Below, piece after piece: positions 6,405-64,000 of a stretch of 64,000 nucleotides of DNA. Both the position numbers and the translations under genes were made by a program. Positions within the stretch are counted from its first letter, which is position 1; every line of letters starts with the position of its first letter. The stretch comes from Iphione sp. A-MEVVRFRX5 (Eukaryota), in contig OZ320318.1 in the NCBI GenBank assembly GCA_976226885.1, positions 806,001-870,000 on the forward strand, written 5' to 3'. The notes under the pieces were generated by a model. That model searched no databases. It had not been told where the DNA came from and worked only from the letters and a program-made list of their open reading frames with translations.

Positions 6405-7440
6405 TAAGAAGGGAGAGACTTTAAACCCATGGAGAGGGACCCACGGAGGGACATGAGGGGAACCTGAGAAGTAAGACAGGAGAGACTATCACCTTTAAAC
6501 CCATGGAGAGGGACGTGTGGAGGGACGTGAGGAGAACTCGAGAGGTAAGAAGGGAGAGACTTTAAACCCATGGAGAGGGACCCACGGAGGGACGTGAGGA
6601 GAACTGAAGAGGTAAGAAGGGAGAGACTGCCACCTTTAAACCTATGGAGAGGGACCTGGGGAGGGATGTGAGGAGAACTCGAGAGGTAAGAAGGGAGAGA
6701 CTATTGCCTTTAAACCCATGGAGAGGGACCTGCGGAGGGACGTGAGGAGAACTCGAGAGGTAAGAAGGGAGAGACTATTGCCTTTAAACCCATGGAGAAG
6801 GATGTGTGGAGGGACGTGAGGGGAACCTGAGAAGTAAGAAGGGAGAGACTATTGCCTTTAAACCCATGGAGAGGGACCTGCGGAGGGCCATGAGGAGAAC
6901 CTGAGAGGTAAGAAGGGAGAGACTATCGCCTTTAAACCCATGGAGAGGGACCTGGGGAGGGATGTGAGGAGAACTCGAGAGGTAAGAAGGGAGAGACTAT
7001 CGCCTTTAAACCCATGGAGAGGGACCTGCGGAGGGACGTGAGGAGAACTCGAGAGGTAAGAAGGGAGAGACTATTGCCTTTAAACCCATGGAGAAGGATG
7101 TGTGGAGGGACGTGAGGGGAACCTGAGAAGTAAGAAGGGAGAGACTATTGCCTTTAAACCCATGGAGAGGGACCTGCGGAGGGCCATGAGGAGAACCTGA
7201 GAGGTAAGAAGGGAGAGACTATCGCCTTTAAACCCATGGAGAGGCACCTGCGGAGGGACGTGAGGAGAACCTGAGAGGTAAGAAGGGAGAGACTATTGCC
7301 TTTAAACCCATGGAGAGGGACCCGCAGAGGGCTGTGAGGAGAACTCGAGAGGTAAGAAGGGAGAGACTATTGCCTTTAAACCCATGGATAGGGACCTGCG
7401 GAGGGACGTGAGGAGAACCTGAGAGGTAAGACAGTAGAGA
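6405..7440. repeat. 74-bp purine-rich minisatellite, ~14 copies
   Basis: Unit AAACCCATGGAGAGGGACCTGCGGAGGGACGTGAGGAGAACTCGAGAGGTAAGAAGGGAGAGACTATTGCCTTT. Period checked at 6711 and 6785. Confidence 0.95.
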
Positions 7441-9170
7441 CTGCCGCCTTTAACAGATAAGACGAGAGACTGATGGGCACGTCAGGGCGGCTCTGCGAGG
7501 CAGCCATGCGAGGAACATCCAATCCTTTACATTTGCCGAGCATGAAAAGTCAATTATCTGCTCTCTGCCCTGCCCTGCCCCCTCCCTCCACCTTCATCCT
7601 GGGCTCTTCCCATCATGCCCCTAGGACAGGGCGTCTCCTCCCCCCCCCACACCACCATCACCACGTCCACCTTTCCTTCGTCACCCAGCTAAATCCCTCC
7701 CCTCACTCACCTCCCTCCCTCCCTAGTCCGCCCCTATACCCCAATAGGCTTACACCTGCCTGGCATTAATGGGGATCTGAAAGCTCATAGTGTTGGCCTG
7801 CAGATCTACCTACCACTGCCAGCTACACAGGTAAAGTCGGGTCCCCCCCCCCCTGCCCCCCCCCCTCGTACACCACAGCGCGCTACATCCCTTCAGAGTA
7901 ATGGACTGTGAATGGGGACCACTCAGATAAACATCAGCAAATCATCGCGTCTTTGAAGCTACAGGGCTCGCATGATGATAAAAAACAGAACCTTATTGTC
8001 AGCTGGGAAGCCATCGTGTGACTCTCAAGCCTCAACAAGCTCCCCACCTCAATCATGTGGGGGAGAGATTTCTCTATTCGTAACCTATTACTTTCATGCT
8101 TTAATGGGGCTGTGTTCGTGATCGCTGTCTCCCAAACCAATGATAAATGATGATAAACTCAAACCTTAACGATAAACCAAGAAAGAATTCCAAATAAATA
8201 CGAGTTTCCTGGATGTTTAGAATGGCGGTTTGATGATGTCAGCCAGGTTATACGCGCTAAAATAAGTTTGATGATTTTAATGGCATAATAGATTTATTGT
8301 CAGTTTTTTCTACTGTAAATTTTCTCATTATTTCATAAATAATCCTTTCGTTATTTTTTTTTTAATTTGAAATGCCTGGGTTTGAAAGAGTGAGTTGCAT
8401 TTACAAGATTTAATACATTACGCGATTTGAATTTGTTGGTGACATGGTGATTTCCTAGCCCCGGCATGAAATACTTTACGTGGCAATGTCCTAACGTGAT
8501 AAACTATCTGTCTCTCTGGCTCACCAGAAGTCCAACCATCGCACATGTTTTCTACGGGGAGTCACGTTAAATGGTATCTACTAGCAGGTTGAAAGCCCAT
8601 TCTACGGCAGTGTTAGCCTCCAAGTAAAAACCCTGGTTTAAAACTAAACAGATGTGAGGTTAGCCATTAACTGCCAGTTTGTCAGCAGTGACAGCATGTC
8701 TTCTGTCAACACCTAGTTATTGGCCCGAGAGCTGATGGCCGAAACTTAGGCAGTCTTTCCATGTTTGCATATTCACGCATTTTATATGGGAAAAACCAGA
8801 CACGGACCTTTGCTATGTTCCCTACCCATGTGTCTGGACATCACCCATAGAGACGCACATTCAAGAAGCTGTAGCCAATCACTGATCGGCACAAATACAG
8901 ATGCATGGCCGGGATGGGTGATACGCTGACAGCTGTCATCAGGGTGGCCCCCAGGGGTCGCTTCATCTATTGTAGTGGATGTGTGTACATGTAAAGGACA
9001 ATGATCCAAACCATGTGTTATGGCTACATTTCTGACACTATATTGTACGTATATGTAGAAAGATCACCCTCATACTGAAAGGGTGTGTCCCAGGGTTCGG
9101 CTGTCCAGAGGCAATGACCTGAGTTATACGATCACTCCTTGTAATTGTCCTGATCTACCCCCCTACTCAG

Positions 9171-40289: not shown

Positions 40290-41010
40290 TATAACTACAC
40301 AGTCTCCCGAACCTCCACATTTATAGCCACCCAGTCTCCCAAACCTCCACATTTATAACCACCTAGTCTCTCAAACCTCCACACCTTTATAATAGATCAA
40401 ACCTTTATGTCTAAAACCACCCTCTCCTGTAAACCAACACCCCCATTTCCAACCGGTCTCCCCAGCCTCCACCATTATAACGATGGAAACCCCCACAACT
40501 ATAACCACCTGGTCTCCCCAACCTCCACCATTATAACCATGGAAACCTCTAACTTTATAACCATCTGGTCTCCCCAACCTCCACCATTATAACCATGGAA
40601 ACCTCTACCTTTATAACCATCTGGTCTACCTAATCCCCACCATTATAACCATGGAAACCTCCACCTTTATAACCACCTGGTCTCCCCAACCTCCACCATT
40701 ATAACGATGGAAACCTCTACCTTGATAACTACCGAGTCTCCCCAACCTCCACCATTATAACGATGGAAACCTCTAACTTTATAACCATCTGGTCTCCCCA
40801 ACCTCCACCATTATTATCATGGAAACCTCTACCTTTATAGCCATCTGGTCTACCTAACCTCCACCATTATAACCATGGAAACCTCTACCTTTATAACTAC
40901 CCAGTCTCCCCAACCTCCACAATTATTACCATGGAAACCTCTACCTTTATAACCATCTGGTCTACCTAATCCCCACCATTATAACCATGGAAACCTCTAC
41001 CTTTATAACC
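40290..41010. repeat. 56-bp minisatellite
   Basis: TATAACCATGGAAACCTCTACCTTTATAACCATCTGGTCTCCCCAACCTCCACCAT. CCATGG anchors at 40537 and 40593. Confidence 0.93.
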
Positions 41011-41082
41011 ACCCACCATCTACCCTGTCTCCACCCCACGTATTCAATGAATTTTGGACACACACTGAGCAGACCCCCTGTT

Positions 41083-49994: not shown

Positions 49995-50439
49995 TTAATG
50001 TTGATTTTACATGCACTATGTTGCCCACACACTTTGCTGCATTGATGTGAGTGCTTGTGAATGGATATTGACATTACCTGAACTATTCATATGTGTCTAA
50101 TCATAATGCACCCAAGACACATAACAGTAAGCAAACACATGCAAGACAGGTTGTAATGCCAATGTATGCATCATTCAACACATTTCTATAGTATCCTCTC
50201 CAACCTGGGCTAATGCAGACTCGTCTGAAAATAATATTTTTAAGGATTTTTTTTATGACAGACATCGTGTGGATGTAAAAGTGGCCTAACAGTCTATATC
50301 TGCTGTGGAATGTGTATTTTTAGAAGAAGTGCTTGTTTCAAATGGTTGCTGGTCAGAGGTTGACTGAAGTCTCAGAGTAAACAGTTGAAGCCAAAGTTTA
50401 TCTTATACACATACATTCCCCAACTGTTATATAAAAGTA

Positions 50440-51370
50440 TACGTCTCATACACATACAACCCCCGACTTTTCTATACAAGTAAACCTCTCATACACATAC
50501 AGCCTCTCACCCTTCTATAGAAGTATACGTCTCATACACATACAGCCCCTGACTTTTCTATACAAGTAAACCTCTCATACACATACAGCCTCTCACCCTT
50601 CTATAGAAGTATACCTCTCATATACAGCCTCCGACTCTTCTATATAAGTATACCTCACATATACAGCCTCTGACTCTTCTATACAAGGATACCTCACATA
50701 TACAGCCTCCGACTCTTCTATAGAAGTATACCTCTCATATACAGCCTCTGACTCTTCTATACAAGTATACCTCTCATACACATACAGCCTCTGACTCTTC
50801 TATACAAGTATACCTCTCACATACAGCCTCCGACTCTTCTATACAAGTATACCTCTCATACACAGACAGCCTCTGACTCTTCTATACAAGTATACCTCTC
50901 AAATACAGACAGCCTCCAACTCTTCTATACAAGTATACCTCTCACAAACAGACAGCCTCTGACTCTTCTATACAAGTATACCTCTCACATACAGCCTCAG
51001 ACTCCTATGTACAAGTATACGTCTCATATACAGACAGCCTCCAACTCTTCTATACAAGTATACCTCTCATACACAGACAGCCTCTGACTCTTCTATACAA
51101 GTATACCTCTCACATACAGCCTCTGACTCTTCTATACAAGTATACCTCTCACATACAGCCTCCGACTCTTCTATACAAGTATACCTCTCATACACAGACA
51201 GCCTCTGACTCTTCTATACAAGTATACCTCTCACATACAGCCTCCGACTCTTCTATACAAGTATACCTCTCACATACAGCCTCCGACTCTTCTATACAAG
51301 TATACCTCTCATACACAGACAGCCTCCGACTCTTCTATACAAGTATACCTCTCATACATATACAGCCTCA
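50440..51370. repeat. 39/45-bp minisatellite, >20 copies
   Basis: ATACAGCCTC(T/C)GACTCTTCTATACAAGTATACCTCTCAC, with 6-bp insertion variants. Confidence 0.95.
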
Positions 51371-53289: not shown

Positions 53290-54310
53290 ACCCACTTCCC
53301 CCTCCACCATTCCCAATCACTGCCACAATTCACCATCATTCACCATTTAGTTTTGTCCAGTATTCCACCCTCTCCACCCTCTCTGCCCCGCCAAAGATTT
53401 CCAATCACCACCACCTTCCACCAACCTTCCCCATTTAACACCAATCTCTCTCGACCCAAACACCTACCACTCACAACCACCATTCACCATTCATGATTGA
53501 ACATGGTCCACCATCCTCCACACATGAACTCTCGCCCCCCTCTACAACCTGGATCAACACCTACTACCATTCACCATTTAACACCAGCCATTCTCCCCTG
53601 CACATTCCCAAACACCACCACCATCGACCACCATGATTGAACATGGTCCACCATCCTCCCCCCCACTGACCCCCCCTCCTCTACAACTGACATCAAGCAC
53701 CATTCCCCTTCCACATCTTCGATCACCACCACCTTTGAGCACCATTCAACACTATCCACTCCCTTTCCCGCCTCTCTATCCGCAATCACCAGCATGAACG
53801 ATCCTCATCAACCAATTAACACCCCCATGTCCCTCCCACCAATCACTCCCCCTTCCACATCCCTATACCATTACAACATTCAATCACCATTCACCATTTA
53901 ACACCCTCCACAGTCTCCCTCCGCCCCATCTCTCTGCCCCCCCCCTTCTCTATCCATTCCTCTACCTTACTATTCTCAATGCTGGGTGTTATCAGATCCC
54001 TCCACTCCCTCCCACCAATCACTACCCCTTCCACATCCCCAATCATTACCATTGTCAATCACCATTTAACACCGTCCACCATCCCACTCCCCTCCGCTCC
54101 CCTCTCTCTGTCCCCCTTCCCTATCCATTCCTCTACCTCACTATTCACAGTGCCGGGTGTTATCAGATCCCTCCACTCCCTCCTACCAATCCCTCCCCCT
54201 TCCACATCCCCAATCATTTCCACCTTCAATCACCATTCACCATTTAACACCCTCCATCATCCCCCTCCGCCCCCCTTCCCTCTCTGCTCCTCTACCTCAC
54301 TATTCTCAGT
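53290..54310. repeat. Degenerate C-rich repeat tract
   Basis: Recurrent CACCATTCACCATTTAACACC, CATGATTGAACATGGTCCACCATCCTCC and GGTGTTATCAGATCCCTCCACTCCCTCC blocks. Confidence 0.8.
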
Positions 54311-55039
54311 ACCAGGCACATCAGATCAATCTCACTATGTTAAAGAGTTGCCCCCCCACACTGCCTCCTACTGAGTAGCACATGTAATTAATCCACTGAA
54401 GATTTAATGCCCTCCCATTAAAGACTTCAATTGCCTGCCCGTTTCACCACTGTAGCCTCGCATCAGGCGGAGGCGCCGAGCCGCCCCGCTCAATGGCCGA
54501 CTTACTGATGGCCGCTGTTAAGGTGCAGAGAGATAAACACAAACCCATCACCAGCCATCAGAACACATCAAACATTGATACCTCCAAATGTAATTAAATT
54601 GACTTCCCTGTTTGCAATGTTTAAAGTGCGAGGATTGTTGGTGGAAAGTAGGACCAAGCCAAAATATCGGTAACCTAATTCTTCATGTCATTTATCAAAA
54701 TAACACTTGCCTTAACACTTACTACCGATAATGATGAATTTCTGTCAAATGTAGATTCAGTGGGCAGTAAGTTGATAGTAGATTTGATTTCGCATTTCAT
54801 ATTTACCCTAGACAAATATGACTGGGAATATGAGTAATTATATTGTCAAGCATCAGTTTTAAACACCGCTTTTTAAAACTGGCGGCCAGAACTGATTTCC
54901 GGAGCACTTCCCTTCCCATGATCCTCACACACCTGGGGCTCACTCAGGTTTTATCATTGTTTTCATATCTGCTCCCATTTACAAGAAAGGGAGGCAAAAC
55001 ATTGTTTTGTGTTTGTTAAAGCAGTATTTTGTTACATAC

Positions 55040-55086
55040 ATGACAAGTCCGGTGCAGTACCCCAGTATGACTGTGCTCTTCCCTTC
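55040..55086 (-). CDS. Candidate 47-bp internal exon of an unidentified host gene
   Basis: Minus strand: TTTAATTACTGCCGTTACAG|GAAGGG...CTTGTCAT|GTATGT. Reads EGKSTVILGYCTGLV in phase 0. No homology recognised. Confidence 0.2.
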
Positions 55087-56990
55087 CTGTAACGGCAGTA
55101 ATTAAATAATTAAAGAAGTACACGTAGTGTGTCATGTAAAAGACAAACAGACATGTATGGCCGTAGTTTCCAAGAAAACCTAACGCAGGTTCCTCAAAGT
55201 CCAAAGGGATCTGCCCACGTTGCTCTTTTTTAGCTGTTCATCCAATCTGATAGATATGAAAAACAAATCATTTACAAAAGGGAAAGATGAGAGTCACAGG
55301 GTCAGTGAGCGAATGGGTGATAGAATGTTCCCTGAGGGTGCGAAAGGCACTTGTTGTAATATCTATGATAAAAGGTTTGATTTTTTTCAGGTTGTATTTT
55401 TTAACCGGTGGATGTCTGTAACTACCAATATACGGGGAGAGGGGGCCCCGGTCCAAGTGCCTCGTAAAAGGGTGGTCATTAAATAATACAACAACTAAAC
55501 TCACTCAGATGAGAGAGGACAGAAAGAAAAACACTTGCCCTTATGTAACTGTCAATCGATAGTAAATTAAGTAATGAAGTGTCAATAGAATCTTCTCTAT
55601 GGGAATTGAGAAAATCTACGTTATTTTCTCAAATAACGTCCGGATGTTTTAAGTTGCTAAAGATTTAAATGAAATCGTTCATGTTTTTTCTATGTTTAGG
55701 TGGAGGTGGATGTTGTCGATACCGCCATGTTGAGAAACAGCAGATGTAAAGGTGAAATACGTAGATAAGGAAACACTACATAAAGAAAAGGCAGGTTTTT
55801 CATTTACACATAAACAATAATGCAAATGTATGTAATAATGTTGGATACAAAGCCACATTTTCCTGGTAATATTACTTATTGCTTTTCCATGTATAGTAAT
55901 CAAATATAACAGACAAAGCGACCCCTCGGGGCCAACTAATTAGCAGATTGTTGAAGTGTCAATGACACTGTTACAACACTAATGTTTACTATTTCTTAAG
56001 ACAATGTCTGGAAAATAAGCAAGCTGATTGGTGAAAGCTCTATTATAAATATCACAAATAGTAAAAAACAGTCCGTTGTAATGGCTTCTGGCAATACATT
56101 AATTGTGCACCTTGCTTATGTATCCTTATCTGGTAAAACCCAGTGACTCACAGATCCAGATGCATGATGTTAGGACACATGGGAAACGGGTACTTTATAT
56201 GCCTTTGTCCTTCGTCATCCCGCATTTGACGCCATACCTACAAGTACATGGAAAACACACCTAACACACACAGAGGTCCTATATTTGACACCTGATGTAT
56301 GTATACCTCTCAATGTATAAAAGAAAACAGGCACCTTTTCCTCCTGGTGACCCGTCACCTCTCACTTCACCTGTGCTTCCCCCACCTTTGTTGTCAAGGT
56401 GACGAGTATCTGTAACCAAGATAACAGGTGTATATAGGTTAGACAGGTGAGCTTTGTCTGTTGTAAGCTTCACGTTGGTCCAAGTGAACAGACGAAAGGT
56501 CGTTATGTTGTATTCTCGAATTATTCTCATGAGGCATAAGACTGTTTATCTCTTTAGTTTATAAGAAGAATTCAATAAATCATTAGTGGGAATAAAAAGG
56601 TCTTTTGTTAATTTCTGTCAGAAGAATGATGAGGAATATGATGGTTTGTTTTGTTATGAGTTATATTTAACTAGTGCTCTCTACCCAGTTATGATTATTT
56701 TTCTATTTATCCCATGATGCATCAAATCAGCATCAGTGATGCTTATGTATAAAATGATGCACTATTTTACATAAAAGCATTAATACTTACAGGTCATGAC
56801 GAAATGTGTTCCAGATCATATACAGAGATAAACTAGGTATTAAAATAGTGGAAATCACCTCCTGACCCTGTTCTTAATTGAACATTTTCTTCTGGGAATA
56901 ATATTTTTCAAAGTTTGCATTCCAGTAATGTAAATCAGGATAAACTAGATGTAAATCTTCTAAATTATATCTTACTTTGAACCATGTTTT

Positions 56991-57004
56991 GTTGCCATGG
57001 CAAC
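56991..57004. promoter_or_regulatory. Perfect palindromic RFX X-box
   Basis: GTTGCCATGGCAAC. It could equally be part of an old repeat. Confidence 0.45.
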
Positions 57005-57252
57005 CAAATAAACAAAAAAAGAAATTTTCAAAGTAGCATGCAATTCAAGGGCTTTCACTTGATAATACAATATTACAAAGTATCTCCTGCATTAAACCCT
57101 ACAGCTAAACTTGATGTATGGAACAGCAGTTACCACTTTCAAAAACATTAGTTTTGTTAGTGAGTAAAGTGTTAAAGTCTGGTGTTCTGGAATCTTGATG
57201 TCCGTGTGTGTTAGTAAATCATAAGTAGTGTAGGGGGAGTGGGGTTCAGGAG

Positions 57253-57376
57253 GAGTTTTCAAGTAGGTCAGTGGTTGGTCACGTGACAAGGTCTATGTCA
57301 AAGGTCACATGACTGAGTTTTCAAGTAGGTCAGTGGTTGGTCACGTGACAAGGTCTACGTCAGAGGTCACATGACT
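57253..57376. repeat. 62-bp tandem duplication in the putative terminal repeat
   Basis: GAGTTTTCAAGTAGGTCAGTGGTTGGTCACGTGACAAGGTCTA(T/C)GTCA(A/G)AGGTCACATGACT at 57253 and 57315, with 2 substitutions. Confidence 0.95.
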
Positions 57377-57514
57377 GAATAAGGACGATTGAACAAGGAC
57401 GTAAACAAAGAAGGAGGCAGTACTTCGCATGGGAACTGGTATGTATTGAAGTAGGTTAATGATAGGTTAATGGTTACTTACATGGGAGGTAGAATAAAGG
57501 AAGTAGAGATGATT

Positions 57515-57820
57515 TTAGAACAGGATATGAGTATGTTTTCGAAAGGAGGAGGAGGAGGTATGTTGAGGGATTTTTGAGTGTAGGCGTTGAAGCGTGTTTT
57601 TAGCGATATCGTGTGAGGGAGTTATAGTGGAAGGAATGCATGTGAAGCGTAAATGGGATAGGGTCATATCTAGAGGATGAAACAATAATATTGAGAAGAC
57701 AGAAAGAGATAAGGAGAAGTTAGAAGTAAGGTCTAATGGATGAAAGTATGTAGGTGAAGTGGTAAAAGGTTCGAGACGTTTTGTGGCGAACGTGAGCATG
57801 GAGGTGCAATAACCTTTCAT
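57515..57820 (-). CDS. Hypothetical 101-aa protein or terminal exon near the element end
   Basis: ATG at 57820, 47 bp from a palindromic TATA. FHPLD occurs twice in the frame. A strong acceptor (CTTTGTCTCCTCTGTCCAG, exon start 57833) suggests it could be a downstream exon. No homology recognised. Confidence 0.35.
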   Translation of the reverse strand: MKGYCTSMLTFATKRLEPFTTSPTYFHPLDLTSNFSLSLSVFSILLFHPLDMTLSHLRFTCIPSTITPSHDIAKNTLQRLHSKIPQHTSSSSFRKHTHILF

Positions 57821-57864
57821 GGAATCAACAAAGCTGGACAGAGGAGACAAAGGTAGGTGGGAAA

Positions 57865-57882
57865 CCTATATATATATATAGG
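57865..57882. promoter_or_regulatory. Palindromic TATA element CCTATATATATATATAGG
   Basis: Perfect 18-bp palindrome between divergent ATGs at 57820 (-) and 57975 (+). Confidence 0.45.
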
Positions 57883-57974
57883 AAAGGAGAAGGTCAGTGT
57901 TAGGTGAAGAGCGCTAATATTTGCTAGAGATTGTCTTGTCGAGAGCGGTTTGGTGGCTACCCAAGAGTGAAGGT

Positions 57975-59148
57975 ATGGAGGCAATTTCAGATAACGTGTC
58001 AGTTGAAATGATAGAAGGATATGTGAAGATGGAAAGGAGGCGAAATGGAGAGATGGTGAGGAAATGGAGAGTTGCTAAGGAGTTGTTTGAACAAGCAGGG
58101 AAGCGATGGACGAAGATTTTGCGAGGCGAGGAATGTAAAGTGGTCGTTCAACATAAACAATGGTGTATGCAGCTGAAGACTTACACTGGGAGAGAGTACG
58201 TTTCTTTTGCACGATTGGGAGTTTCGGGAGATAGGCTTACGTAAGTATAAATTGAAATGACATGGAATGTTGGTAGATTAATGTATGAGATTGTGTGTAT
58301 TAGTGAGAAGTATGGGTTTTTGTGGAAGTATACGTTTGAAAAAGGTAAATTTTATGTATGAAGGAAGAAGCACCAAGAAGTAATACGCAATGTTATTATT
58401 TTTGTATTGCAGCTACGATTGTTTTAATGTCACAGAAGATGAGTTTCACGAGGTATTAGAGCGGGTGAAGCAGTCTAGAAAAGATGAGAAGAACAAGAAA
58501 GAGACAGCTGAGGAAGCAGATAGAGGAAGTGATGATGAGGAGAAGGCAGAGGAGGAGGAAGAAGAGGCCTCAAAAGCGAAGAAGAAGAAGGTGGAGAAGC
58601 AGATACAGTACCAGAGGTCCTGGTACCAACATGTTTCAGCCGTCGACGGGTCAATTAGAACGAACGGTGTCTTGTTCATTCAGAATGCTCTTTGTGTTGC
58701 TGAAGGCGAAAACCATCAGTCTGAGAATGAAATGGTCGAGTACGGGAGGCAGGAAGGACTGACCATCACGGTAGGCGAAATCTGTGAGAAAACATATCTA
58801 TATATGCTACGTGATGGCTATAAGATGCTGATAAAGAACTGGTGTGAAGGTTGTCGTGTGAGAGCAGACGGGCAGGAAAGGCACATTCCAGGTTGTGTGG
58901 AATTGCCTGAAATGGTTGATTGGAGCGCAGTGCATGCTGCTCATATCAGAATTTCACCCGCACGATTGATGGAAGGTACAAAGTGTATGGTGAAGGTGTA
59001 TTTGGATTGTGATAACATTGAGGATGCTGATGATGTGCAGGTGGATTTAGATATGTGCAGGGATGTCATCAAGAGAGGAGAAGCCAAAGGAGACGAGTTT
59101 CTGTGTGTGATTCTTGAAAGAGACTATGATGTGTTGAAGAGGAAGTGA
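57975..59148 (+). CDS. 2-exon 333-aa protein: PC4-like region, acidic/basic linker, C-terminal CxxC-x6-Q-x2-H-x2-GC putative Zn-binding motif
   Basis: Exons 57975-58240 and 58413-59148 (1002 nt). The intron is GTAAGT...TTGCAG, phase 2, and joins in frame to give KTYTGREYVSFARLGVSGDRLT-YDCFNVTEDEFHEVLERVK, a strand-strand-helix pattern resembling PC4. Start context GGTATGG. Motif CEGCRVRADGQERHIPGC. Domain calls are by eye. Confidence 0.75.
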
Positions 59149-60121
59149 GATTTCGGGCTCCATGTGACATGGTGTGTGTTTACAAATAAGAAGAAATGTA
59201 TGCCTTATTAACACTCTATTTATTTAGTACTAGTTCACATACATCAGTTATATAGGAACTCAAAAGTAGTTATATATATCCTAATAGCAACACTTGTACG
59301 AGACATACATATCTACGTTGTTTGAAAATGCTATACAAACTATATGTAGTGATTTATATATGTTCCTGAGTTAGTATATATTGTATAATGATGTAGCATG
59401 AATTATAAGGACGGAAGTCAGAGATTATAAGTAAGATTAATATTATGGTGTACATAGGCATAGGCAGCATGCAATGAGTACAATGTAATATGTTAACATG
59501 ATGTCTACATGAATAAACTGTCCTTATAAACTCAATGGATTTTTGTGTGTGTGTGTGTGTGTTTTTCAACTACCATCAAGAACGAGAGTAAATATATCTT
59601 AACTATAATGAACAAAGTATACGTAATGTTTTTCTACGTAATAATATACCGATATGAAGATATTACTGAAACTGAACCAAACTAAGCTGAATACAGCGAA
59701 CTATTTGAGAGTATATATGGATATATTGTTAAGTATTTTGGATATGTAAGATGTTATAAGTAGACGATCATAAGTATAAATTTAATATGGATTTAGTTCA
59801 ATAATATGTGTTATATCAAAAAGCATCTGGCGACAGTGAAGAAAACATCAAATATCAGATAACCATCCTATCATGAACTCAAAACAGATCTATCCTAAAA
59901 GAAAACATGGTAAGGCACAAGTCGCGCAGTTGTTGTAATAAAAGACACGTCATAATATAGGAGATATATGCAAGTAAAATGTTCGATGGAATTCTCAAGC
60001 TGCTTTGGCTGTGAACAGCCATAAGTTGCCAGCATCATGTGTATGTGTTACGTCGTAATAAAAGATACATTATGATATAGAAGATATATGCAAGTAAAAA
60101 TCCGCAATGTTCAAGTTGGTA

Positions 60122-60136
60122 TCCGCTAGATGGAGC
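60122..60136 (+). promoter_or_regulatory. CTCF-like motif inside the element
   Basis: TCCGCTAGATGGAGC lies between convergent 3' ends. Confidence 0.4.
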
Positions 60137-60222
60137 AAGAGTCGGTGTAATGTGGTTGGAACCAAACAAGAGGGTGACGAAAACCAATACATAGTTTTCA
60201 AGTCCTGTTAGGTTGGGATAGG

Positions 60223-60717
60223 TTATTCCGCGGCATCAGAGTCACTGTCATATGCAAGAGTAGCTACCGGTTCTCGTTTCCAAAACTGCGGGGGAGGAGA
60301 AGGACTGGTGCTGCTCGATGGATCAGGGTTAGGATCGGTGCTGGTCGATGGGCCGGGAATAGGATCGGTGCCGGTTGATAGGTTGGGAGTAGAATCTTGT
60401 TCACTTGGTTGAGACACAGAACATCCTTGCACGGGCGACTGCGGAGGTGAAGCATTCTCTTCAGGCAACTGTAAGAGAAGTAAGAAGGAAAAAAAAGAAT
60501 AGCTGAATGAGACATGATGTTCATAGCACAGAGATATATATCATGGTTAAATATGGTAGATGAAGTAGGTTAAATGATTTATAGGTTAGTTTAAAAAGAG
60601 TGGGGGTGCCTTAAACATGTAGCGGGGAGATTTGGATGAACAGATACATATATATGTATGCATGGCACGCGTGCATGCGTGCGCACACACGCATGCATGC
60701 GTGTGTGCGTGTGTGCA

Positions 60718-60748
<31 letters not shown>

Positions 60749-63129
60749 AAAAATTAGAGACACATACATCTGTTATCTTGGGTGTTGACTGGACACGGTT
60801 TAGGACTCTAATCGATCGGCGCACAGGCTGAGTTGCTGTTGCAGAGTCGTTTTTTGAGGTTCGTCGACGACAGGTTTTGCCGGCAGGTTCTCGTCCTCTT
60901 GGTGAGGATGAAGTGGCTGTAGATGTGGTTGAAGTCTTCGGTTTCACAATCATGCTCTCTTGTGTAGGCGTGTGGTCAAAAGTTGAGGACGTTGTGGTAG
61001 TGGTGGTAGTTGTGGTGGAGTTGGTCGAAGGACGTATGGGCCGTCTAGTTGATGAATCAGTAGTGACAGCGGCAGAAGTAACAGTGGAGAAAGCAGAAGA
61101 ACCAGTAGAAACAAGAGGTTGAGATGAAGAATGAGAGGGATGGCATTGCGGAGGATAGAGCATGATGCCTTGAGAACGAGGAGGTGGCAGGGGCGGCCGT
61201 GGTCGGGGTGATGAGGTAAAGGACGAGCAAGAAGTGTACAAGTTTGGAGAGTTTGAAGATGAAGAAGGGGAGAGGATAGGGGCATGGACAATGGGAGTTT
61301 CAGTTGATGTGGTGGAGATGGGCGGTGTAGTGACGGGAACAGAGTGAGATAGAGATGAAGCAGTTGTCAGTGCTGGGAGAGAAGAAGACAGGGAAGCAGG
61401 TGGGTCAGTATGTTCGTTCTCAGGGCTACGGCTATGAGAATGGTTGGAGGGAGTCAAAGTGGTGTGAGGTATGGAGCGTGTAGATGATTCGAAAGAAGAG
61501 ATGTAATCTGCGAGGGATGTGCCGCGAGGAAGGGAAGCAGTGGAGGGTCTATAGTCAAAAGGAGATGTAGTGCCATGTTTATGTCCAAAGGATGACTGTA
61601 AGAAAGGGTTAGTGTTTGGAGGAAGATCAATGCTTGCTGGTGGATGCAAGAAAGGGGGATGGCGAATAGAGGTAGATGGGGTAGAGGCGCATGTAGGAGA
61701 AGATGAGATAGGGGGCATGGGTATGAGAGGAAATCTAGATATGTAGTCACCAGAAGTGATTAAGGGAACATCGAGTGAAGATGAAGTAGGTGTGGAAAGA
61801 TCATCAAGGGGGATGGACTCAAAAAGTGCGGGTGAGAGTGGTTGAGGTGGACGAGAGGGGCGAGGTGGAGGGTGGGGGCGTGTCGAGGGTGAAGTAGGGG
61901 AGTATGTAGACTCCGAGGAGTGGTTGTGACTGTCATGTTTGTAAGCAGCTTTCTCATCAGTGCTATAACATAGAACAGTAGGCGCAGAAAAATGAGCAAG
62001 GGGGATTACCAAATGTTTCTTTAAAACTTATATATGAGGTAATGAATGAGAGAACAATATCATATGTACACACAGGAGTAACAGGGACTTAGCAGAGGGT
62101 ATAGTCACGGAGAGAGCATTAATGCGTAGAAAGGGGAGACACATGGATGTTGAGCTTACAGTTTAGTGAGCAAAATATGGCTATCAATTTAGACCTTTTC
62201 GACTTTGTGAAAATATTCACAGTTCAAATAATCAGGATATTAATAATAACAATAATGATATATGAGGGAATAAATAATAGAAGAAATATATTTGACAGGA
62301 TAATGTATAAGTCAGATGATGATGTAAAAGAGAGATTTATAGGTTGTACTTACCTGCGAGTAGGCGGTGGAGGGGTTGGAGGCGATGGAGATCTAGTGGT
62401 TGGAGATTGTTGTGATGCAGAGGATGCCGGTGATGGTGGTACGAAGTATGGATGTCTGCGCATCAGTGCAGAGTACCACTTGAAACGCACACATGGCACC
62501 ATAAGTGCCGCAATGGTGAGGAAAAGCAAAACTGTCCCAACACAGGAAAGTATAATGACATCCGAGTTGGTGTATGTGCGAATGTATTCTGTCAGAGTTG
62601 GAGACGGATAAGTTGGCACTGATGGGCCGTTGTCATCAGGTACTGGATGGATTAAGACAGGTTCTACTTTTGACTGTGTCATGCTTTCAATCGGGTCCTC
62701 GGCGGGGGTTGCTGCAATCTCGGCTGTTGCAACAGAATATGCAGATGGCGGGAGTTCGCCTTCAATGTTATCACTGCTGGCAATGGAATGTGGATTGATC
62801 GGTGGTGATATTAGTTTAATTGTTGATGTTGGGATATATAGCAGACGAAAAACAATGTTCATGTCAATGTCCACCGCTTCAACATACCGTAGATTAGGGA
62901 AGACTTCGCGCAGTCGATCACGTAAACGCACCTCTGGATCCACGATATGTGGTGCATTCAAGTAAAGTCGGTAAAAGCGTGGGTACACATGGTGTAGTGA
63001 GTAAAAAAAGGATGTCGCCACACTGTTGCAATGAACGGAAGTCTGTAGACAAACACATCGTCTGCATAATATGTCCTCACTGAAGACAAAGTGGATGAGA
63101 AGTAATCCCAAAAAACTACGTAAAAGCAT
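60223..63129 (-). CDS. 3-exon 738-aa type I membrane protein: signal peptide, LRRNT-like Cys cap with degenerate LRRs, S/T/P stalk, TM, ~520-aa disordered tail
   Basis: Exons 63129-62354, 61962-60768 and 60468-60223 (2217 nt, 739 codons). Intron 1 is GTAAGT...TTATAG (phase 2) and intron 2 is GTATGT...TCTCTTACAG (phase 0); both join in frame. Start context GCCATCATG. Hydrophobic N-terminus at aa 1-17, CRRCVCLQTSVHC, TM at aa ~191-214 followed by RFK. Confidence 0.8.
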
Positions 63130-63690
63130 GATGGCAACGCCGTCATCAGATACCGATGCAGAGGCTGACTACGGGGCTGGTTTTCAAATCCCGCAGTGTA
63201 CCGGGTAATGGGTGCATGCACTATAAAATGAACTCGACCATTGTCGCAAAGTTTAACAAGATTAATTAAAATGTAATAAAAATGTGGTTTTTAGTAGTCG
63301 GAAAGATATGAAGAGCCAGTCCTAGAACGTTCGATGAAGAATTACCAATTAATGCAAAAAGCATGTCAACATTATCGGAAAATGGACTGGTCCTTGTAGG
63401 AGTATCTAATGGGGAGGGGGCACTTCGCGGTCGCGGGGTGATAAAGTAGCCGTAAACATTTCAGCGGACACCTCTGAAAGCACAGAAGGCAAGATAAGAC
63501 GAGAAAAGAGGACGAAAGGCTCGTAAATTTTATTAGCAGAGGGGGTGTGCTGGTGGACAGTGCAAATCTCATAGCCGTTTTCAGACACAGGATAGGCGCC
63601 AAGCAGGAGACCAGGAGGACAAAACGGTGTAACAGGAATATACACAGAGAGAAATCAGCGGGGTATTTGCAGACAGGAAATAGCGCCGAA

Positions 63691-64000
63691 ATGTATCAGA
63701 AGTTTCTCATTCTGCTTGTTTTAGTGTTTATTGTGACACTAATTAAGTCGGAATGTCCTTTGAGGTGTGGTGGATGCAATCCACCCTTGATGAGATGTAG
63801 AGGAGAACTTGATCCGTTCCTGGTTAACTTTCGGAGAGATGAAAGGATGAAAGGACTCGATTGGGGAGGATGTATGATCAGTGAGATCAGACCTGAAGTG
63901 TTTGAAATATTTGAGAATGTGGAATTTCTGGACATTAGACATCAAGGAATTGAATTTAAGTGCTGGTCACTGCGGAAAGTACCAGCACATGTAAAAGTGT
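63691..64000 (+). CDS. 5' part of a secreted or membrane mini-LRR protein (no stop in window; absent from the ORF track)
   Basis: MYQKFLILLVLVFIVTLIKS-ECPLRCGGCNPPLMRCRGELDPFLVNFRRDERMKGLDWGGCMISEIRPEVFEIFENVEFLDIRHQGIEFKCWSLRKVPAHVKV. It has a signal peptide, a 4-Cys LRRNT-like cap, and two LxxLxLxxNxI-type motifs 24 aa apart (M53, V77). Confidence 0.8.
   Translation, partial: MYQKFLILLVLVFIVTLIKSECPLRCGGCNPPLMRCRGELDPFLVNFRRDERMKGLDWGGCMISEIRPEVFEIFENVEFLDIRHQGIEFKCWSLRKVPAHVKV

What the first reader, a model, noticed from the sequence alone, without database searches (positions are those of the whole stretch)
57224..64000. Predicted end of a Polinton/Maverick element, with a testable target-site duplication
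Seen: repeat-rich, gene-poor host sequence changes at ~57224 to tightly packed genes. The segment starts AGTAGT and is preceded by ATCATA (57218-57223). Established: Polintons have long TIRs, 5'-AG termini made of 1-3-bp tandem repeats, and 6-bp TSDs. Inference: this is one TIR plus the accessory-gene arm, and the core genes lie beyond 64000. Intact reading frames and splice sites suggest a young copy.
Basis: partly seen in the sequence, partly recalled or inferred. Interest (0 to 1): 0.72.

Follow-up and report, generated by a model that had tools for sequence, protein, structure and literature searches.

The report
Probable left end of a Polinton
The last 6.8 kb of this animal DNA stretch look like one end of a Polinton, a known kind of virus-like jumping element, carrying three accessory genes, but the other end and the core virus genes lie outside the stretch and could not be checked.

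Summary
The observation largely holds. AGTAGT starts at 57224 after ATCATA, inside a sharp composition change point (57139-57228); that motif falls in such an interval about 2% of the time. Two 62-bp repeats follow. The segment has a G-over-C strand skew in spacers, introns and silent sites of genes on both strands; the 2.9-kb flank has none. Three genes: A (spliced, 333 aa) belongs to an unnamed family whose N-terminal domain is predicted to have the PC4/Pur-alpha single-stranded-DNA-binding fold, a fold also annotated (MOSUB) in adintoviruses; B (3 exons, 738 aa) is a predicted membrane protein; C is an LRR-like secreted or surface protein cut by the window end. No core gene, inverted repeat or second target-site copy is in the window, and no genome, run or related locus was available, so the defining tests are open. 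Polinton-family end: about 0.8; with core genes downstream: about 0.55; core-less derivative: about 0.25. 'Young copy' is not shown. Most likely an ordinary new member of a known kind.

The parts
57218..57223 (.). Six host bases before the end motif (ATCATA): the predicted target-site duplication, second copy not seen
   Evidence: Sequence; motif ACTACT followed by these bases is not in the window
57224..57229 (+). (AGT)2 end motif, inferred left terminus
   Evidence: commonest vertebrate Maverick end motif per PMC8097293 section 7; chance 2%
57224..57860 (.). G-rich non-coding terminal region, candidate terminal inverted repeat (length unknown)
   Evidence: G 213, C 60 on the top strand, skew 0.56; no inverted copy in the window
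57253..57376 (+). Two tandem 62-bp subterminal repeats (2 mismatches), each with a GTCACGTGAC palindrome, a GTCACATGAC variant and two AGGTCA boxes; possible host-factor binding sites (factor names E-box and nuclear-receptor half-site are recalled)
   Evidence: no stable hairpin (z -0.85)
57865..57898 (+). Candidate core promoter of gene A: TATA run (18-bp palindrome 57865-57882) and TCAGT about 30 nt downstream (initiator-like, recalled)
   Evidence: Sequence; inference
57975..58240 (+). Gene A exon 1: most of a two-repeat PC4/Pur-alpha-like domain
   Evidence: HMM from homologues only ranks this frame first of 1567 window peptides, E 9e-6, next best E 1.8; collinear with P0008 from residue 4, pairwise E 0.003, not with P0003 (E 0.14); fold of homologue P0008
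58241..58412 (+). Gene A intron, 172 nt, GT-AG
   Evidence: profile positions stop at 86 in exon 1 and resume at 96 in exon 2
58413..59148 (+). Gene A exon 2: last helix of the PC4-like domain, acidic/basic linker, C-terminal domain with C-x-G-C-x9-H-x2,3-G-C-x15-H motif (metal site inferred)
   Evidence: 12 hits at E <= 0.001, best 8e-17; motif in 21 of 22 sequences; model pLDDT 89
62354..63129 (-). Gene B exon 1: hydrophobic N-terminus (signal peptide by eye), cysteine cluster, Pro/Ser/Thr stalk, one transmembrane helix (about residues 191-209)
   Evidence: ORF; hydropathy peak 2.7; donor GTAAGT at 62353; no homologue found
60768..61962 (-). Gene B exon 2: Ser/Pro/Thr-rich tail (S 21%, P 16%, T 15%)
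   Evidence: 478-codon open frame; longest in 500 base shuffles 254; splice phase fits
60223..60468 (-). Gene B exon 3 and stop
   Evidence: Pyrimidine-rich acceptor at 60469 gives 738 aa; an alternative at 60457 gives 734 aa
63691..64000 (+). Gene C, cut by the window end: hydrophobic N-terminus, cysteine cluster, leucine-rich-repeat-like stretch
   Evidence: Hydropathy 3.1; TLR3 ectodomain E 7.8e-5 summed over weak stretches, none significant alone; no Pfam LRR hit

Best explanation
57224 is the left terminus of an integrated Polinton/Maverick (adintovirus-type) element in an animal genome, and 57224-64000 is its terminal repeat region plus an accessory arm; polymerase, integrase and capsid modules lie beyond 64000. 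Shown: end motif, subterminal repeats, strand skew, three gene models, the gene A family and its predicted PC4/Pur-alpha fold. Inferred from family knowledge: an integrase inserted the element after ATCATA and duplicated it; the (AGT)2 end is the origin for protein-primed strand-displacement synthesis; host RNA polymerase II and the spliceosome express the accessory genes. Inferred function: protein A binds displaced single-stranded DNA or melted promoters (replication or transcription cofactor); B and C are surface or secreted cargo acting on the host cell or its immune recognition.
For: End motif inside a sharp change point; (AGT)2 ends, 6-bp duplications and accessory regions flanking the core are described for vertebrate Mavericks (PMC8097293). 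G>C skew in all six non-coding stretches tested (0.19-0.69, each p < 0.001) and at four-fold sites of B (minus strand, 0.38) and C (plus strand, 0.62; A 0.28, p 0.08), none in the flank (-0.01): a history unlike the adjacent host DNA. Homologue model matches Pur-alpha (Z 10.5, rmsd 3.7, 117 residues) and PC4 (Z 6.4); in the viral fold library MOSUB of Branchiostoma lancelet adintovirus is rank 2 (E 1.7e-3, probability 1.00); a MOSUB label stands beside an ITR label in the text of Fig. S2 of PMC8502044. Intron-bearing cargo next to the left TIR is reported for nematode Mavericks (10.1101/2022.07.12.499685). Full-length homologues (312-337 aa) are single open frames, 8 of 12 representatives on contigs over 100 kb.
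Against: No core gene in 6.8 kb, longer than the 2-5 kb cargo region reported in nematodes. The MOSUB match is fold only (10% identity, TM 0.38 on the target), and phage proteins at ranks 3-5 score alike. No homologue could be placed in a Polinton: no locus was returned. The best change point is 57156, 68 nt left of the motif, and counting all three published motifs the chance is 8%. The skew shows no significant fall with distance from the end (Spearman p 0.28) and A exceeds T, which simple deamination of a displaced strand would not give. Gene B exon 1 has no skew at silent sites (0.06).
Confidence: 0.55

Rival explanations
1. It is the end of a non-autonomous Polinton derivative: real (AGT)2 terminus and cargo arm, but the core is deleted, or the element is a mirror-image (palindromic) copy of this arm that borrows polymerase and integrase from a helper Polinton.
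For: All evidence for the terminus applies equally. No core gene in 6.8 kb. Microsatellites and a 1-kb spacer inside. 96% of vertebrate Maverick loci are degraded (PMC8097293). Unchecked notes of this scan describe such derivatives in other animal genomes, leads only.
Against: Three genes with open frames and consensus splice sites; no inverted repeat of the arm begins within the window, so a palindrome would have to exceed 13.5 kb; vertebrate elements of up to 24.6 kb leave room for such an arm plus core.
Confidence: 0.25
2. It is another kind of foreign DNA (an endogenised larger DNA virus or a giant cargo transposon); AGTAGT near the junction is chance.
For: Skew, CpG content and compact genes show foreign origin but not family. 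PC4-like folds occur in many viruses. Spliced genes and LRR-like proteins are common in large DNA viruses (recalled). A published motif falls in the interval 8% of the time.
Against: AGTAGT itself has a 2% chance and is followed within 30 nt by a perfect-looking subterminal repeat pair; no transposase or large-virus gene in the segment.
Confidence: 0.12
3. These are ordinary host genes (a lineage-specific PC4-like gene and two surface-protein genes) in a gene-dense patch.
For: Canonical introns, TATA-type promoter, microsatellites. Bivalves carry expanded PC4 sets, up to 18 genes, some intronless (PMC9223095 passages; that paper does not mention Polintons).
Against: Abrupt orientation-independent skew; no Pfam match in 87 host frames of 75 aa or more from 1-57223, then three genes in 6.8 kb; very short introns against a repeat-rich background; the PC4 expansions may themselves be element-borne (inference).
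Confidence: 0.08

Closest known systems
Vertebrate Mavericks/Polintons (Barreat and Katzourakis 2021, PMC8097293; passages and section 7 read)
   Same: 5'-(AGT)2 end motif; accessory region between the terminus and the core; length so far fits 12.7-24.6 kb elements.
   Different: Genes here have introns (the paper saw none in intact elements' genes); TIR, 6-bp duplication and the eight core genes are unseen here; host unidentified.
Adintoviruses (Starrett et al. 2021, PMC8502044; section 3.2, passages and machine-read text of Fig. S2)
   Same: A PC4/Sub1-like gene (MOSUB) is annotated in this group, labelled next to an ITR in one map; gene A has that fold and is the first gene after the terminus; paired-cysteine accessory proteins are described.
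   Different: Gene A is 333 aa with two PC4-like repeats and an added Cys/His domain; MOSUB A0A5H3CIS2 is 203 aa and matched by fold only; no LxCxE motif in the exon 2 domain or its homologues, so not an Oncoid by that test; which virus the map row belongs to is unclear from the extracted text.
Nematode Mavericks with cargo (10.1101/2022.07.12.499685; passages read)
   Same: [quoted passage not shown]
   Different: Cargo there is 2-5 kb of wasp proteases or krma kinases; here at least 6 kb of a PC4-like gene and two surface-protein genes.
PC4-like superfamily, type I domains: Pur-alpha repeats I-II, MRP1/2, Whirly (PMC7549692; passages read)
   Same: Two beta4-alpha repeats in one chain, Z 10.5 to Pur-alpha 3k44.
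   Different: No sequence similarity (8-15% identity; no PC4 or PurA Pfam hit in 17 of 17 members); fused to an unassigned Cys/His domain; binding untested.

Membership tests
Polinton/Maverick | 5' end motif (AGT)2, (AG)3 or (AC)3A | tested here: met
   AGTAGT at 57224 within the change-point interval; motifs from PMC8097293. Left end only.
Polinton/Maverick | Terminal inverted repeats | not testable with these tools
   Right end outside the window; no genome; no inverted copy of 57224-57900 inside the window.
Polinton/Maverick | 6-bp target-site duplication | not testable with these tools
   Only the left six bases are visible.
Polinton/Maverick | Protein-primed B-family polymerase and retroviral-type integrase | tested here: inconclusive
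   None among 24 frames of the segment scanned with Pfam; expected beyond 64000, which cannot be read.
Polinton/Maverick | Major and minor capsid, packaging ATPase, cysteine protease | tested here: inconclusive
   As above.
Polinton/Maverick | Dispersed copies and empty sites | not testable with these tools
   No genome; no second copy in the window.
PC4-like superfamily (gene A) | beta4-alpha repeat fold, two repeats per domain | tested here: met
   Predicted for homologue P0008 (pLDDT mostly 82-94 over residues 1-120, one block 62), Z 10.5 to Pur-alpha; window exon 1 tied to it by HMM, E 9e-6. The window's own N-terminal domain was not folded.
PC4-like superfamily (gene A) | Binds single-stranded nucleic acid | not testable with these tools
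   Needs a binding assay.
Leucine-rich repeat proteins (gene C) | Repeated LxxLxLxxN units with cysteine caps | tested here: inconclusive
   TLR3 E 7.8e-5 from summed weak stretches; no Pfam LRR hit; only 103 residues visible.

The most novel reading that the evidence does not exclude
The element carries its own single-stranded-DNA-binding protein of an unnamed family (Pur-alpha-like domain plus a Cys/His metal-binding domain with no assigned fold) that serves strand-displacement replication as the adenovirus DNA-binding protein does, together with a spliced receptor-and-decoy cassette (membrane protein B, LRR-like protein C, divergent from one spacer) that works like an adenovirus E3-type host-modulation region (both analogies recalled). 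The element-wide skew would then be a replication footprint that reverses in the right arm.
Probability: 0.25. Interest if true: 0.55.

Novelty: new member of a known kind. Interest (0 to 1): 0.3.

Why it matters
One more Polinton end in an animal genome is ordinary. The added value is the accessory arm: a PC4/Pur-alpha-like gene family without a Pfam model or names, a candidate for the single-strand-binding factor that strand-displacement replication would need, and spliced surface-protein cargo that hints at how these elements deal with host cells. The window also gives three sharp predictions (right end ACTACT plus ATCATA, inverted 62-bp repeats, reversed skew) that one look at the assembly would settle.

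Tried and rejected
No whole genome is held. DNA patterns from the subterminal repeat found 0 matches in viral contigs and metagenome contigs. Protein-based locus scans returned no locus: viral contigs (one search reported 1 relative among 4 candidate stretches but gave 0 loci), prokaryote genomes, metagenomes; phage records gave no match. Word-based protein searches found nothing for gene A exon 2 or the gene B ectodomain; the ESM Atlas gave no usable hit. Gene C was not searched in the large protein collections. P0005 (933 aa, repeat protein, 32-residue match) was dropped from the 12 hits as chance. The C-terminal domain of A has no clear fold match (best Z 6.5 over 46 residues; viral library best E 0.03); this does not show a new fold. 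B and C are not detectably related (E 0.30). Rfam matches at 60636-60767 are far below gathering scores and sit on the GT microsatellite. The terminus forms no unusual hairpin. A simple deamination gradient was tested and not supported. My recalled idea that the C-x-G-C motif marks Polinton accessory proteins could not be tested. Paper searches pairing Polinton or Maverick with PC4, SSB or Sub1 listed no paper describing the link in the rows shown (20-25 of 30-160); in PMC11662393 PC4 is a cluster label; 10.1101/2024.03.25.586562 has no such term. The library lacks most subscription papers, and Fig. S1 and S3 of PMC8502044 could not be read, so the family may be described elsewhere. Look-ups of earlier findings by place and sequence were empty.
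Full report
Question. The window is animal-like DNA rich in tandem repeats; no Pfam family matched 87 open frames of 75 aa or more chosen from 1-57223. No genome is held, so nothing beyond 64000 could be read.

The boundary. ATCATA (57218-57223) and AGTAGT (57224-57229) are as stated. A two-segment composition fit puts a strong break at 57139-57228 (gain 69 log units; 30 shuffles reach at most 9.8), best point 57156. AGTAGT lies in 1.9% of 5443 host windows of that width, any of three published end motifs in 7.8%. (AGT)2 is the commonest end of vertebrate Mavericks (PMC8097293 section 7). Thirty bases in, two 62-bp repeats with 2 mismatches follow, each holding a GTCACGTGAC palindrome and AGGTCA boxes. 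Repeat density does not change at 57224: the last host tandem array ends at 54273. What changes is strand skew (+0.39, against -0.28 to +0.16 in 17 host windows of equal length) and CpG o/e (0.79 against 0.32-0.70). The skew holds in six of six non-coding stretches and at silent sites of genes on both strands, though not in gene B exons 1 and 3, and is absent from the 2.9-kb flank. One intron value is inflated by a GT microsatellite. I read the skew as the mark of DNA with its own replication history; a simple deamination gradient was not supported.

Gene A (57975-58240, 58413-59148, plus strand). A TATA run and a TCAGT box precede it. Splicing a 172-nt GT-AG intron gives 333 codons without stops. 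Exon 2 found 12 proteins at E <= 0.001 among 1.84 billion; 11 are true relatives and one was dropped. A C-x-G-C...H...GC...H motif is present in 21 of 22 sequences, the miss being a 90-aa fragment. A profile made only from the homologues picks exon 1 first among 1567 window peptides (E 9e-6) and resumes in exon 2 where exon 1 stops, which confirms the splice model independently. The model of homologue P0008 (pLDDT 82) matches Pur-alpha over residues 1-124 (Z 10.5, rmsd 3.7, 117 aligned), PC4 over 63-125 (Z 6.4) and MRP1/2 and Whirly proteins: a type I PC4-like domain, a class that binds single-stranded nucleic acid and can destabilise duplexes (PMC7549692 passages). Among viral models, rank 1 is a poor superposition (rmsd 21.7), rank 2 is MOSUB of Branchiostoma lancelet adintovirus (E 1.7e-3, probability 1.00, 10% identity), and phage proteins follow with like scores. 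The machine-read text of Fig. S2 of PMC8502044 shows MOSUB beside an ITR label. This ties the fold, not the family, to Polintons. The 12 representatives are unnamed; 11 come from ENA assemblies and one from Logan, 8 on contigs over 100 kb, and P0001 has three 98-99% identical relatives on other long contigs, which may be copies, haplotypes or separate assemblies. Their neighbourhoods could not be read.

Genes B and C. B (minus strand; 63129-62354, 61962-60768, 60468-60223) splices to 738 aa: hydrophobic start, cysteine cluster, stalk, one transmembrane helix and a tail of about 525 Ser/Pro/Thr-rich residues; its second exon is a 478-codon open frame against a maximum of 254 in 500 shuffles. 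No homologue was found. C (from 63691, plus strand) starts with a hydrophobic segment and a cysteine cluster and resembles TLR3 leucine-rich repeats weakly. B and C diverge from a 560-nt spacer. Coding density of the segment is 52%. No polymerase, integrase, ATPase, protease or capsid frame is present.

Mechanism. Shown: a terminus-like junction, a subterminal repeat pair, a skewed segment, three intact gene models. Inferred from the family: integrase-made insertion with a 6-bp duplication (PMC8097293; 5-8 bp and 13-25 kb in PMC10748475), protein-primed replication by a polymerase with strand-displacement activity (PMC5499653 passage), and host transcription and splicing of accessory genes, as for the intron-bearing cargo beside the left TIR of nematode Mavericks. 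Protein A would coat displaced strands or act as a transcription cofactor; B and C would act at the cell surface. None of these functions was tested.

Weighing. A Polinton-family terminus is likely (about 0.8). Whether core genes follow is open: 6.8 kb without one exceeds the nematode cargo length, and unchecked notes from this scan describe core-less and palindromic derivatives in other genomes; I give 0.55 to a complete element and 0.25 to a derivative. Another foreign element gets 0.12 and host genes 0.08. Youth is not shown: open frames may reflect selection, and no pair of terminal repeats or copies could be compared.

Verdict. Observation partly confirmed, interpretation partly supported; membership is not established because terminal repeats, duplication and core genes are untestable here, and no defining feature was tested and failed. 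New member of a known kind, interest 0.3; the unnamed PC4/Pur-alpha plus Cys/His family is the part worth following. Papers were seen as passages or named sections only, as marked; PMC9223095, PMC11662393 and 10.1101/2024.03.25.586562 as passages. Unreadable supplementary figures of PMC8502044 may bear on whether the gene A family is already named.

Noticed in passing
window 59932-59979 and 60052-60099: Two 48-bp imperfect repeats (88%) 120 bp apart in the A-B spacer, each with AATAAA and a TATA-like run; only frames of up to 47 codons nearby. Possibly remnants of small duplicated genes or 3' signals.
   Followed up: partly
window 57224-64000: G-over-C and milder A-over-T skew on the top strand regardless of gene direction; predicts a mirrored skew in the right arm.
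   Followed up: partly
window 54300-57223: AT-rich, repeat-free, unskewed 2.9-kb flank between the last tandem array and the element, with a perfect 14-bp palindrome at 56991 (RFX-box-like, recalled); it may be regulatory DNA or another insertion.
   Followed up: partly
window 1-54273: Dense minisatellite arrays with units of 43-322 bp, such as 48 bp at 525-1509, 74 bp at 6419-7453, 56 bp at 40455-41013 and 43 bp at 50394-51369, and 13 runs of N; no Pfam match in 87 frames.
   Followed up: no
proteins P0001-P0022 (not in the window): An unnamed family, PC4/Pur-alpha-like domain plus Cys/His domain, with no Pfam model; several members are called as N-terminally short forms, as expected if some have introns like gene A.
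   Followed up: partly
window 60646-60748: Purine-pyrimidine repeat and GT microsatellite with a 28-nt palindrome inside gene B intron 2; gives spurious Rfam microRNA matches.
   Followed up: yes
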